This document shows, one piece after another, positions 53,066 through 56,048 of a stretch of 64,000 nt of DNA. A program made the translations under genes and the position numbers. Location: NCBI GenBank assembly GCA_037443035.1, contig JBBIPC010000002.1, forward strand, positions 96,001-160,000, read 5' to 3'. This DNA comes from Chthonomonadales bacterium. GTDB lineage: Bacteria > Armatimonadota > Chthonomonadetes > Chthonomonadales > CAJBBX01. How positions within the stretch are numbered: the stretch's first letter is position 1; each line of letters begins with the position of its first letter. Below the pieces are notes generated by a model. The model was not told the origin of the DNA and did not search any database. It worked only from the letters and a program-made list of their open reading frames with translations.

Positions 53066-54931
53066 ATGCCTGAATACCTAGCACCAGGTGTGTTCGTAGA
53101 AGAGATCGAGAGCGGCTCCAAGCCCATCGAAGGCGTCGGCACCAACACGGCGGCCTTCATCGGCTACGCGAAGAGCGGCGAGTTCAACAAGCCCACGTTC
53201 ATCTCCAACTGGACCCAGTTCTGCCAGATCTTCGGCGAAGAAGAGAACATCATCGTGAAGGCCCTCTGCGACGAGCTGGGCATGCCTGCGGCAGAGCTTG
53301 TGGCGGCCAAGCGTGCGTCCCGGAAGAGCTGGATGGACTTCGCGATGGCGACCATCACAGCGGCCATTCGCGAGCGTCAGGCCTCAGGGAAGGCCGATCC
53401 ATCCAAGTGCAAGACATGGCCTGAGTTCGTCAAGAAGTATCAGATCCCCCAGGGCAGCCTGCCATACCTGGAGGGAAGCTACCTGGCCCATGCTGTGCGC
53501 GGCTACTATGACAACGGTGGCGGACGTGCTTATATCGTGCGTGTCGCCAGGCCGGATGACATCGCTGCGCTGACCTATGTGCCGGCGGGCGCTGGCGCCC
53601 AGGCTCAGCCGTCGGTGGCACAGGTGGCCGTCGGCGGAATCACGTTCAAGGCACTGAAACCCGGTCCCGAGGGCAACGATATCAAGGTCGAGGTCGAGGC
53701 AGCCGAGGGTGATGAGTTCCGGATCAAGATCACCCATGGCAGCGACACGGAGCAGTTCGGCTATGGTAAGGACAAGCCGCTCACCGTGCAGACGCTGGCC
53801 GATGCGCTGAAACGCTCCAAGCTAGTTCAGGCCGAAGTCACCGCGACTGCCACCAAGCCTGAGGCGAAGGTCTACACGCTGACCGGAGGCGCCGCGTTGG
53901 CCACCACTGGTCCGGGTACAGCGCTAACACCTGCCGGCTCGGCCGTATCCACCAGCCTTGCGAAGGTCTCGCCCAACGATTTTGTCGGTGACGAGGCACA
54001 GCGCACAGGCTTCAACGGTCTCGCAGTGGTGGAAGACATCAACTTCGTGGCGGTTCCCGACTTGATGGCGGGGGTCTTCACCAAGGTCGAGACCCCTGGC
54101 GGCGCCGTCGAGGAGGTGCTGACCATCACCGACCAGCGCAAGCAGGCCATTCTCGATGCTCAGTGCGCCTTGGTTGCCTACTGCGAACGCATGGGCGACC
54201 GGATGGCCATCCTCGATCCCCTTCCGGGCCTCACGCCGCAGGAGATGCGGGATACGACCAACAACACCGCGTATAACTGCGACCACGGCCAGGCAGCTAT
54301 CTACTACCCGTGGATCAAGATCGCCGATCCTACGCGGAAGGGAGCGCAGATGTTCTGTCCTCCTTCGGGACACGTCGCCGGTGTCTGGGCTCGCGTGGGT
54401 GTCGAGCGTGGCGTCCACAAGGCTCCTGCGAACGAGGCGCTGCTGGGCGCGGTGGATCTCGAGGTCAAGGTAACCAAGGGCGAGCAGGAGATCCTCAACC
54501 CCGACGGCATCAACGCCATCCGTGCGTTCCCCGGCACTGGTATCCGAATCTGGGGTGCCCGGACTCTCGCCACAGTTGGCAATCCGTCGTGGAAATACAT
54601 CAACGTCCGGCGTCTGTTCAACTACCTGGAGAAGTCCATGGAGCGCGGGCTGCAGTGGGTCGTCTTCGAACCCAACGACGAGGACCTCTGGGGCCGCGTG
54701 CGGCGCAATCTGTCGGCCTTCCTGTGGACCGAATGGAAAGAGGGCAAGCTGTTCGGATCCGTCCCAGAGGAGGCCTTCTACGTCAAGTGCGACGCTGAGA
54801 CCAACCCGCAGGAGATGATCGACCTGGGCAGGCTGTATGTGGAGATCGGCGTGAACCCGGTCAAGCCCGCCGAGTTCGTCATCATCCGCATCGGCCAGTG
54901 GTCCGGCGGCGGTTCTATCTCCGAGACGTAA
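53066..54931 (+). CDS. Contractile tail sheath protein (eCIS Afp2/3/4-like)
   Basis: MPEYLAPGVFVEE, YYPWI, PPSGHVAG, RGVHKAPANE, IWGARTL, YINVRR, VFEPN, PVKPAEFVIIRI; AAGGAGG RBS. Confidence 0.96.
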   Translation: MPEYLAPGVFVEEIESGSKPIEGVGTNTAAFIGYAKSGEFNKPTFISNWTQFCQIFGEEENIIVKALCDELGMPAAELVAAKRASRKSWMDFAMATITAAIRERQASGKADPSKCKTWPEFVKKYQIPQGSLPYLEGSYLAHAVRGYYDNGGGRAYIVRVARPDDIAALTYVPAGAGAQAQPSVAQVAVGGITFKALKPGPEGNDIKVEVEAAEGDEFRIKITHGSDTEQFGYGKDKPLTVQTLADALKRSKLVQAEVTATATKPEAKVYTLTGGAALATTGPGTALTPAGSAVSTSLAKVSPNDFVGDEAQRTGFNGLAVVEDINFVAVPDLMAGVFTKVETPGGAVEEVLTITDQRKQAILDAQCALVAYCERMGDRMAILDPLPGLTPQEMRDTTNNTAYNCDHGQAAIYYPWIKIADPTRKGAQMFCPPSGHVAGVWARVGVERGVHKAPANEALLGAVDLEVKVTKGEQEILNPDGINAIRAFPGTGIRIWGARTLATVGNPSWKYINVRRLFNYLEKSMERGLQWVVFEPNDEDLWGRVRRNLSAFLWTEWKEGKLFGSVPEEAFYVKCDAETNPQEMIDLGRLYVEIGVNPVKPAEFVIIRIGQWSGGGSISET

Positions 54932-55008: not shown

Positions 55009-55443
55009 ATGGCTGAAGTAGTCGGCGCCCTGCGATGGTACCTGGAGATTGACGGCATCACCGAGGGCATCTTCCGAGAGGTCACTGGCCTCGATTCGGA
55101 AACGGAGGTTATCGAGCATCGCGTCACTGGCAAGGGCGGAAACCTCGTCGTCCACAAGGTACCTGGCGCGCTCAAGTGGCCCAACATCGTGCTCCGTCGC
55201 GGCATTACCGATGACAAGCGGCTCCACGACTGGCGCAAACAGATCGAGAACGGCGGCATCGAAGCCAACCGCAAGAACGGCTCTGTGACGCTCTATGCTC
55301 CCGACGGCAAGGTCGTCTGCAAGTACACCTTCAAGAAGGCCTGGCCCTGCAAGTTCAAGGGACCAGCCCTAGATTCGACCAAGAACGAGATCGCCATCGA
55401 GGAGCTAGAGCTGGCACACGAAGGTCTCGAGCGACAGCAGTAA
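55009..55443 (+). CDS. Tail tube protein (T4 gp19-like, Afp1/5-like)
   Basis: FREVTGL..ETEVIE, PG..KW.NI.LRRG, RKNGS, AWP.K..GP.L....NEIAIE.LELAHEG. Confidence 0.95.
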   Translation: MAEVVGALRWYLEIDGITEGIFREVTGLDSETEVIEHRVTGKGGNLVVHKVPGALKWPNIVLRRGITDDKRLHDWRKQIENGGIEANRKNGSVTLYAPDGKVVCKYTFKKAWPCKFKGPALDSTKNEIAIEELELAHEGLERQQ

Positions 55444-55461: not shown

Positions 55462-55815
55462 ATGAACAAGCCTACCAAGAGCGGTCTTCAGACGGAGTTC
55501 GACTTCGTCCTGCCACGCGGATACATTGACCAGAACGGCACTCTGCACCGCGAGGGACGTATGCGCCTAGCGACAGCCATGGACGAGATCGCTCCGCTGA
55601 GAGACCCTCGCGTCAGAGCCAATCAGGCCTACCTGGTTATCATCCTCCTGGCCAGGGTGATCACGAAACTCGGCACTGTCGAGGTCATAGACACGGGTGT
55701 CATCGAGAACCTCTTCTCGGCAGACCTTGCTTACCTGCAGGACTTCTACCGGAAGATCAATGACTTGACGCCCGAGGAGACCGCGGAAGAGGAGGCTGAA
55801 CCGGCGGGGGAATAG
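55462..55815 (+). CDS. Tail assembly chaperone-like protein (gpG-equivalent position)
   Basis: LQTEFDFVLPRGY.D..GTLHREG.MRLATA.DEI.PL.DPRV..N.AYL..ILLARVI, typical of the small gene after the tube in eCIS loci. Confidence 0.8.
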   Translation: MNKPTKSGLQTEFDFVLPRGYIDQNGTLHREGRMRLATAMDEIAPLRDPRVRANQAYLVIILLARVITKLGTVEVIDTGVIENLFSADLAYLQDFYRKINDLTPEETAEEEAEPAGE

Positions 55816-55973
55816 CCCGCTACCCCTCGAGCGCGCTCTACGAGGAGGTAGCCTACATCGCCTATCACTTCCACTGGTCGTTGGAGGAGATCCTGAGCCT
55901 GGAACACCGAGAACGGCACAGGTGGGTGGAAGAGATAAGCAAGATCAACCAGCGACTGACCGGGGGCGACTGA
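55800..55973 (+). CDS. DUF6760-like ORF without its own start codon (gpT-equivalent; probably reached by -1 frameshift)
   Basis: Not in the ORF track. The -1 frame reads ..GGIARYPSSALYEEVAYIAYHFHWSLEEILSLEHRERHRWVEEISKINQRLTGGD*, bounded upstream by TGA at 55797-55799, with no ATG/GTG/TTG before the conserved motif. Confidence 0.8.
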   Translation, partial: TGGGIARYPSSALYEEVAYIAYHFHWSLEEILSLEHRERHRWVEEISKINQRLTGGD

Positions 55974-56048
55974 CAGCGCAAGACATCATAGCGCCTAGGC
56001 GCCCCCGCGACCTTGTACGACCGTAGACTGCGACAAGCAACTTCCGAG

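What the first reader, a model, noticed from the sequence alone, without database searches (positions are those of the whole stretch)
55788..55973. Programmed -1 ribosomal frameshift joining the eCIS chaperone to a start-less DUF6760-like ORF
Seen: the chaperone ends ..GCG GGG GAA TAG. The -1 frame opens only at 55800 (TGA at 55797), has no start codon before a clearly protein-like motif (LYEEVAYIAYHFHW...EH.ER..WV.EIS.IN) and stops at 55973. The heptamer GGGGGAA (55806-55812) lies in the 16-nt overlap, with SD-like GGAGG (55791-55795) 10 nt upstream and a weak possible stem (CCTC..GAGG, about 55825-55845) downstream. Established: long-tailed phages make gpG/gpGT chaperones by -1 frameshift between the tail tube and tape-measure genes; GGGGGAA is a slippery site used by mycobacteriophage chaperones; an internal SD about 10 nt upstream stimulates -1 shifting in E. 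coli dnaX. Inference: this eCIS makes a 117-aa G and a 170-aa GT-like fusion, so DUF6760 would be the gpT half and not an independent gene. I am not aware of this being widely annotated in eCIS loci.
Basis: partly seen in the sequence, partly recalled or inferred. Interest (0 to 1): 0.88.

Follow-up and report, generated by a model that had tools for sequence, protein, structure and literature searches.

The report
Hidden frameshift in injection-system chaperone gene
A bacterial phage-tail-like injection machine very probably makes a short and a long form of its assembly chaperone from one gene by letting some ribosomes slip back one base, a known phage trick that seems to have gone unnoticed in these machines and that explains one of their unnamed genes.

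Summary
Observation confirmed and extended. The 117-aa ORF (55462-55815) has a phage tail-assembly-chaperone fold. The start-less -1 frame (55800-55973, DUF6760) is a remote homolog of P2 gpE', the known frameshift extension. In 178 of 179 non-redundant related junctions (several bacterial phyla, haloarchaea, a few phage contigs) DUF6760 lies in the -1 frame. Of these 178, 142 have no start codon, and all 142 keep a G-run or GGGAAA site. An SD-like signal upstream is modestly enriched. Independent contigs show no indel. Best reading: programmed -1 ribosomal frameshift giving G (117 aa) and GT (170 aa), as in lambda G/GT and P2 E/E+E' (about 0.85). No product was measured. Ten library searches and text searches in seven CIS papers found no report of it. 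The scan noted G/GT shifts in phage-type loci before, and a chaperone gene in one other CIS locus, but no note holds DUF6760. New variant of a known kind.

The parts
55009..55443 (+). Tail tube gene, directly upstream of G
   Evidence: PF06841 E 3e-38; TIGR02241
55462..55815 (+). G: 117-aa tail assembly chaperone. Folded core about residues 10-101, then a low-confidence acidic linker ending Gly-Glu-stop
   Evidence: phrog_508 tail assembly chaperone E 9e-8; AF2 model pLDDT 83; top PDB folds 3KLU Z 6.7 and HK97 TAC 2OB9 Z 6.0; 95 of 120 homologs end GE, 9 GG, 7 GN
55790..55795 (+). Internal SD-like AGGAGG, 10 nt before the heptamer; probable secondary stimulator
   Evidence: Sequence; stronger than synonymous recodings 7-14 nt upstream in 114 of 140 junctions, no excess beyond 20 nt
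55806..55812 (+). Slippery heptamer G GGG GAA (P-site Gly, A-site Glu), followed at once by the G stop TAG
   Evidence: Gly codon is GGG in 136 of 140 against 20% background
55819..55852 (+). 3' RNA hairpin starting 6 nt after the heptamer; probable main stimulator
55800..55973 (+). T: -1 frame, DUF6760, three-helix domain, no start codon; C-terminal part of the predicted 170-aa GT protein
   Evidence: PF20546 E 3e-19; PF06528 P2 GpE matched by 39 of 70 family members at E<=1, best 4e-5; hhalign to P2 E' probability 89.7, E 1.9e-6; model pLDDT 89
56013..63641 (+). 2542-aa ORF in the tape-measure position, with an Ala/Gly/Arg-rich middle and an eCIS_core (DUF4157) domain at 1369-1444; candidate client of G/GT (inferred)
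   Evidence: no PHROG tape-measure match
53066..54931 (+). Tail sheath gene
   Evidence: PF04984, PF17482
51688..52971 (+). Pvc16_N (cap/terminator-like) gene with carboxypeptidase-regulatory domains; first gene of the CIS cluster
   Evidence: PF14065 E 1e-29

Best explanation
One mRNA gives two proteins. Most ribosomes stop at TAG 55813 and release G (117 aa, 13.2 kDa). A minority pause with GGG in the P site and GAA in the A site, held by the hairpin 6 nt downstream, by the stop codon next in frame and probably by SD pairing 10 nt upstream. They slip back one base and read the DUF6760 frame, giving GT (170 aa, 19.5 kDa). By analogy with lambda and P2, many G copies and a few GT copies coat a long client protein, and the T domain recruits tube subunits. 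Shown here: sequence anatomy, conservation, homology and fold. Inferred: the shift itself, its efficiency, the client and the T-tube contact.
For: Phase -1 in 178 of 179 non-redundant junctions, and in 14 of 14 loci found through DUF6760 in an evenly drawn sample of 201 genomes. 142 of 178 lack a start codon and all 142 keep the slip site; it is lost only among start-bearing loci (6 of 36). The heptamer sits at a fixed distance from the T motif while the G stop moves (-11, -8, up to +25) and the linker varies. Silent-site bias: GGG 136 of 140 (background 20%), Val GTA 125 of 131 (6%), Pro CCC 128 of 150 (27%). Hairpin z -2.95 against synonymous recodings, controls -0.03 to -0.4; the two best-varying pairs rank 1st and 3rd of 2278 column pairs by mutual information. 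A Streptomyces-type clade swaps to a different 3' arm with the same 5' start (6-7 of 7 pairs in 8 of 9 loci). GGGAAAC/T/G variants without a long run occur in 5 tree groups including haloarchaea and in a terminase-bearing phage contig. T resembles P2 E'. Bacillus phage BCD7 has the same start-less -1 ORF after G GGG GAG TAA. GGGGGAA is the five-two motif of SEA-PHAGES chaperone shifts (PMC10885494, passages).
Against: No RNA or protein data: no RNA run holds the stretch. RNAalifold returned no consensus structure for a 60-row alignment that included divergent loci. G gave no profile match to P2 gpE or Mu gp41, and PDB fold scores are middling (Z 6-7). 36 of 178 loci have a start codon near the overlap, and a 4-base stop/start overlap gives the -1 phase by itself. 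The downstream 2542-aa ORF has no tape-measure family match, and only 18 of 156 loci showed an ORF of 500 aa or more right after T (many contigs are cut). The sample is rich in related Chloroflexota and Armatimonadota, so p-values overstate.
Confidence: 0.85

Rival explanations
1. The fusion is made, but by RNA-polymerase slippage that adds one G in the G run, not by the ribosome.
For: G runs of 5-8 bases are usual (54, 33, 28 and 28 of 155 loci), and 29 loci have a G7 heptamer. Transcriptional frameshifting is known for a T6SS gene (PMC4256274, search listing only).
Against: The conserved hairpin lies 3' of the site at ribosome spacing, where the RNA is not yet made when polymerase is on the run. 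The run is phased to the G reading frame. GGGAAAN variants have no long run. This window has only five G.
Confidence: 0.06
2. DUF6760 is a separate small gene started by re-initiation or coupling at ATA 55812 (or at ATG/GTG overlaps in other species); the G run serves as a ribosome-binding site.
For: RefSeq annotates it as a separate gene with a 4-base overlap in Nostoc, Burkholderia, Streptomyces, Kitasatospora and haloarchaea. 36 of 178 loci have a canonical start, and in some the G run could pair with the anti-SD. Six have lost the slip site.
Against: 142 of 178 have no canonical start. The equivalent codon encodes Ile 106, Val 43, Met 15, Leu 7 of 178, like an internal hydrophobic residue. 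Start codons are scattered over 21 groups of a quick tree. In two actinobacterial loci the annotated start falls on CTG. A stable hairpin 6 nt after a start would hinder initiation (own knowledge). Gene callers give T very variable N-termini.
Confidence: 0.06
3. Assembly error or pseudogene: the true gene is one in-frame ORF.
For: One locus (L057, same genome as L111) reads in frame. 28 of 202 database proteins examined carry both G and T hits; a few such clusters have NCBI or JGI members.
Against: Independent contigs have no gap. 178 of 179 junctions share the phase. L057 has an extra base at the G stop and a second indel in T. Many fused proteins come from ENA only, where frameshift-aware gene calling is common (recalled). 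True fusions would support, not weaken, the view that G and T work as one chain.
Confidence: 0.01

Closest known systems
Phage P2 gpE / gpE+E' (-1 shift at TTTTTTG; record NC_001895)
   Same: Order sheath-tube-chaperone-extension-long gene; -1 shift near the chaperone end; T is a remote homolog of E'.
   Different: Host-encoded injection system; G-rich site; conserved 3' hairpin, whereas P2 has none and such structures are called rare in phage shifts (PMC3091744, passages); no sequence match of G to gpE; next gene is a DUF4157 protein, not a recognisable tape measure.
Lambda gpG/gpGT
   Same: Two products from one gene by a -1 shift; G binds the tape measure and T the tube protein; neither is in the particle (PMC5009743, passages). 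The lambda-type heptamer GGGAAAG (label recalled, also in earlier scan notes) occurs in a DUF6760 phage contig.
   Different: Contractile, capsid-less system. Homology to lambda G or T was not tested.
Actinobacteriophage TAC shifts on GGGGGAA
   Same: Identical heptamer (PMC10885494, passages).
   Different: A family link of the proteins was not tested; here a bacterial chromosomal locus.
Bacillus phage BCD7 gene 90 and T4 gp26-like 'baseplate hub' proteins; Mu FS-gp41
   Same: Best structural hits of G (BCD7 E 1e-5, TMq 0.69; Mu FS-gp41 TMq 0.60, E 0.018). BCD7 has an unannotated start-less DUF6760-like -1 ORF after a G run.
   Different: The phage G is about twice as long (257-269 aa). Streptomyces phages of the BRock type have the T-like ORF in the +1 frame.
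Lineage II eCIS/CIS (Streptomyces CIS, Halogeometricum CIS)
   Same: Gene set and order. The published Halogeometricum cluster carries this pair (HBOR_RS17705/17710) with GGGAAAT in the overlap.
   Different: The papers checked do not name a chaperone or a frameshift, and say that the tape measure is absent.

Membership tests
G/GT-type tail assembly chaperone frameshift (lambda, P2, Mu) | Chaperone gene directly after the tube gene | tested here: met
   Window; tube gene within 400 nt upstream in 106 of 135 loci examined
G/GT-type tail assembly chaperone frameshift (lambda, P2, Mu) | First ORF has the TAC fold | tested here: met
   phrog_508 E 9e-8; HK97 TAC 2OB9 among the top two folds in two searches, Z 6.0, well above unrelated rows; Mu FS-gp41. 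Scores are middling.
G/GT-type tail assembly chaperone frameshift (lambda, P2, Mu) | Second ORF overlaps in a shifted frame and lacks its own start | tested here: met
   Window; 178 of 179 in -1, 142 of 178 start-less
G/GT-type tail assembly chaperone frameshift (lambda, P2, Mu) | Conserved slippery site in the overlap | tested here: met
G/GT-type tail assembly chaperone frameshift (lambda, P2, Mu) | Second ORF homologous to a known T/E' domain | tested here: met
   PF06528 in 39 of 70 members (best E 4e-5; the window's own 0.078); hhalign E 1.9e-6 to P2 E'
G/GT-type tail assembly chaperone frameshift (lambda, P2, Mu) | Tape measure gene follows | tested here: inconclusive
   2542-aa DUF4157 ORF follows but has no PHROG tape-measure match; the phage relative L206 does have one (phrog_167 E 3e-11)
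G/GT-type tail assembly chaperone frameshift (lambda, P2, Mu) | Fusion product made at a low fixed ratio | not testable with these tools
   No RNA run, no proteomics
G/GT-type tail assembly chaperone frameshift (lambda, P2, Mu) | T binds the tube protein; G and GT absent from the particle | not testable with these tools
Sco4251, the gene after the tube in S. coelicolor, has no detection in the mass spectrometry table of purified CIS (PMC10066040 supplement row); its identity with G is positional only, not checked.
eCIS lineage II (dbeCIS) | Sheath, two tubes, LysM/Afp7, single VgrG-like spike, PAAR, gp25, baseplate J, Afp16-like cap | tested here: met
   (the later genes lie beyond the window, locus L217)
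eCIS lineage II (dbeCIS) | Afp15 AAA+ ATPase | not tested
   None among the 18 ORFs scanned; the genome was not searched for it
eCIS lineage II (dbeCIS) | No capsid, portal or terminase genes in the cluster | tested here: inconclusive
   None among the 18 ORFs scanned; no dedicated search

The most novel reading that the evidence does not exclude
Lineage II injection systems, described as lacking a tape measure, have kept the phage tail-building logic. A G/GT pair, at a ratio set by a hairpin-stimulated -1 shift conserved from bacteria to haloarchaea, chaperones the long DUF4157 'effector' so that the tube grows around it. Cargo loading and length control would then be one process inherited from a BCD7/gp26-like myophage, and DUF6760 would mark the systems that load cargo this way.
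Probability: 0.35. Interest if true: 0.85.

Novelty: new variant of a known kind. Interest (0 to 1): 0.62.

Why it matters
It gives a function to two genes that the eCIS census left as subtype-specific genes with no known domain (PMC6899500, passages), and it implies that DUF6760 is mostly mis-annotated as a free gene with an invented start. It points to an answer to an open question: S. coelicolor CIS particles are all one length, yet no tape-measure gene is found (PMC12237407, passage). It adds a conserved, structure-stimulated -1 shift in host chromosomes and plasmids of bacteria and archaea, whereas conserved cases in non-mobile chromosomal genes are said to be few (PMC5009743, passage). 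In practice, recoding, tagging or truncating this gene when expressing such systems could silently remove GT.

Tried and rejected
No RNA holder listed for the stretch: no evidence either way. RNAalifold on alignment A4 gave no structure. A4 is 60 of 155 rows, 8 of them added by hand (four for their compensatory pair), so the pair counts lean towards the structure; the unbiased counts are. Sequence search of PDB with the G profile: nothing. hhalign of G to P2 gpE and Mu gp41: no match. tblastn of G against named phages: none; the link came through L206. Fold search with the small T model: no hit under E 0.1, only suggestive tape-measure-chaperone rows. The careful tree did not finish; group counts come from the quick tree. 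My fixed-register stem test undercounted, because a Streptomyces-type clade uses a shifted 3' arm; across all 26 loci lacking the main stem the mean z (-0.68) equals the control (-0.66). The in-frame locus L057 was rejected as a damaged copy or assembly error. No sigma-70 promoter and no + strand terminator lie near the junction. In-frame fused proteins could not be checked at DNA level. Literature: searches found no report of a frameshift in CIS chaperones and no paper with 'DUF6760'; the library lacks most subscription papers.

Full report
Observation. The sequence is as described. The chaperone ORF runs 55462-55815 and ends GCG GGG GAA TAG. The -1 frame is open 55800-55973, has no ATG, GTG or TTG before its motif and matches DUF6760 at E 3e-19. 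The -1 fusion is 170 aa. Contigs from three public runs of two studies cross the junction without a gap, one of them a 97%-identical strain over the whole stretch, so this is not an assembly indel.

Context. The window holds the front of a contractile injection system: Pvc16-like cap, sheath, tube, G, T and a 2542-aa DUF4157 protein. A second tube, LysM/CIS-tube, VgrG-like spike, PAAR, gp25, baseplate J and Tail_P2_I genes follow beyond the window. The closest named relatives are Armatimonadota. DUF6760 occurs once in the genome and in 15 of 301 genomes of the phylum.

What the two ORFs are. G matches phrog_508, tail assembly chaperone. Its model has the HK97 chaperone 2OB9 and YqbN 3KLU as the two best PDB entries (Z 6.0 and 6.7). 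Among viral models the best hits are Bacillus phage BCD7 gene 90, T4 gp26-like proteins and Mu FS-gp41. Sequence-profile comparisons to P2 gpE and Mu gp41 failed. T is a three-helix domain. 39 of 70 family members hit Pfam Phage_P2_GpE at E<=1 (best 4e-5), and the T profile aligns to the -1 extension of P2 gene E with probability 89.7. So DUF6760 looks like a relative of a proven frameshift extension.

Comparative test. I examined 227 loci from genomes, plasmids, metagenomes and IMG/VR. Searches kept the best 80 of 361 and of 225 matches. 216 loci held both G and T. Of the 11 without a pair, one ran off its contig, two had G without T, three were weak hits under the family cut-off, one had no G, and four were not inspected. 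After removing junctions at least 90% alike, 178 of 179 had T in the -1 frame. The exception, L057, has an extra base at the G stop and a second indel in T. 142 of 178 have no ATG/GTG/TTG 3-21 nt before the conserved Pro, and all 142 keep a G-run or GGGAAA site; 30 of the 36 start-bearing loci keep it too. Five G's begin exactly 18 nt before that Pro in 155 of 178, while the G stop and the linker vary. The background rate is 4 of 14139 codons. Among 120 protein homologs, a variable acidic tail ends in GE (95), GG (9) or GN (7). An evenly drawn sample found through DUF6760 gave 14 of 14 in -1 with a G run. The loci are not independent: Chloroflexota and Armatimonadota dominate.

Stimulators. 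The window folds a 13-pair hairpin, 55819-55852, 6 nt after the heptamer. On the first 155 junctions the Gly codon at the slip site is GGG in 136 of 140 (background 20%), the stem's Val codon GTA in 125 of 131 (6%; other Val codons in T 24 of 241) and its Pro codon CCC in 128 of 150 (27%). Folding energy beats synonymous recodings with mean z -2.95, against about 0 in three control windows; a second run gave -3.4 for start-less and -2.1 for start-bearing loci, with controls at -0.8 and -1.1. Two stem pairs rank first and third among 2278 column pairs. The C-G to T-A swap with the core stem intact falls in 4 groups of a quick tree, and the flanking pair flips in 14 plus 6 groups. A Streptomyces-type clade, also seen in Chloroflexota-phylum genomes, keeps the 5' arm's position but pairs it with another 3' arm (8 of 9 loci). 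RNAalifold found no single consensus on a mixed alignment. SD-like pairing 7-14 nt upstream exceeds recodings in 114 of 140 junctions, by about 1.4 kcal/mol on average (generic anti-SD recalled). The dnaX spacing rule is recalled, not checked.

Reach. The arrangement holds in Actinomycetota, Cyanobacteriota, Bacillota, Pseudomonadota and haloarchaea, where RefSeq mostly lists DUF6760 as a separate gene, twice from a CTG. The published Halogeometricum system has GGGAAAT in the overlap plus a stop/start overlap. A terminase-bearing phage contig has G, GGGAAAG, T and then a tape measure. Phage BCD7 has an unannotated start-less T after a G run, and BRock-type phages place T in +1. 28 of 202 database proteins examined carry G and T in one chain; their DNA could not be checked.

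Mechanism. Best: tandem -1 ribosomal slip on G GGG GAA, stimulated by the hairpin, the adjacent stop and probably the SD, giving much G and little GT (0.85). Polymerase slippage (0.06) fits the long G runs, but not the 3' hairpin or the GGGAAAN variants. Separate initiation (0.06 for this locus) may well apply to the six loci that lost the site. Error (0.01). The role of G/GT follows lambda (PMC5009743, passages) and is inferred. The client is unknown; the DUF4157 protein is the candidate because a DUF4157 effector of S. davawensis is described as tape-measure-related (PMC11126660, passages), although there the domain is N-terminal and here it is central.

Literature seen. Passages only: PMC5009743, PMC3711429, PMC10885494, PMC3091744, PMC6899500, PMC10066040, PMC11126660, PMC13277306, PMC11566945, PMC12210884, PMC12237407. 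Supplement searches: PMC11126660 and PMC10066040 (one PDF unreadable). 'Frameshift' occurs in none of the seven CIS papers searched. Xu 2004, Christie 2002 and Levin 1993 were seen only as cited. Unseen supplements, bioRxiv supplements and subscription papers could hold an earlier mention. The GeneTack chaperone cluster is HK97-like; its supplements were not searched for this family.

Verdict. Real and well supported by comparison, but not measured. The mechanism is a known phage device, and membership is met on five of eight features, with one inconclusive and two untestable. What is new is its presence across a large class of cellular injection systems, the reading of DUF6760 as the T half, and a conserved 3' hairpin. 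New variant of a known kind; interest 0.62.

Noticed in passing
L211:2745-2910 (Bacillus phage BCD7, between genes 90 and 89): Unannotated start-less DUF6760-like ORF in the -1 frame after G GGG GAG TAA; a probable missed G/GT frameshift in a cultured phage.
   Followed up: partly
L212-L214 (Streptomyces phages BRock, GiJojo, LuckySocke), end of the gene after the tube: T-like ORF sits in the +1 frame, open across the G stop, with a conserved CTG TTT C in the overlap; candidate +1 or -2 shift. Annotated as separate hypothetical genes.
   Followed up: partly
L158, L165, L168, L188, L194: A clade in which G ends GGG TAG 26 nt before the T motif, with the -1 frame open and a later ATG; possibly a single-tRNA slip at the stop, or a switch to separate initiation.
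   Followed up: no
L105:1198-1955 (Brasilonema plasmid): Two G-like genes in tandem; only the second has the G run and T.
   Followed up: no
L096 and L099: G homologs with no T frame downstream, followed by unrelated genes; probably truncated clusters.
   Followed up: no
window 56013-63641: The 2542-aa ORF has an N-terminal alpha/beta-hydrolase-like stretch (weak Pfam hits), about 1000 residues of Ala/Gly/Arg-rich helical-looking sequence, a central DUF4157 and an unassigned C-terminal part.
   Followed up: partly
L217:1074-5006 (just beyond the window): A second long ORF (1310 aa) with no Pfam or PHROG match, between the second tube gene and the LysM gene.
   Followed up: no
proteins P0251, P0284, P0317: Short in-frame G+T fusions of 140-159 aa, two in clusters with members from more than one source; possible natural fused forms.
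   Followed up: partly
junction stop codons, 155 loci: The G stop is TAG in 99, TGA in 30 and TAA in 26, consistent with a constraint from the -1 frame.
   Followed up: no
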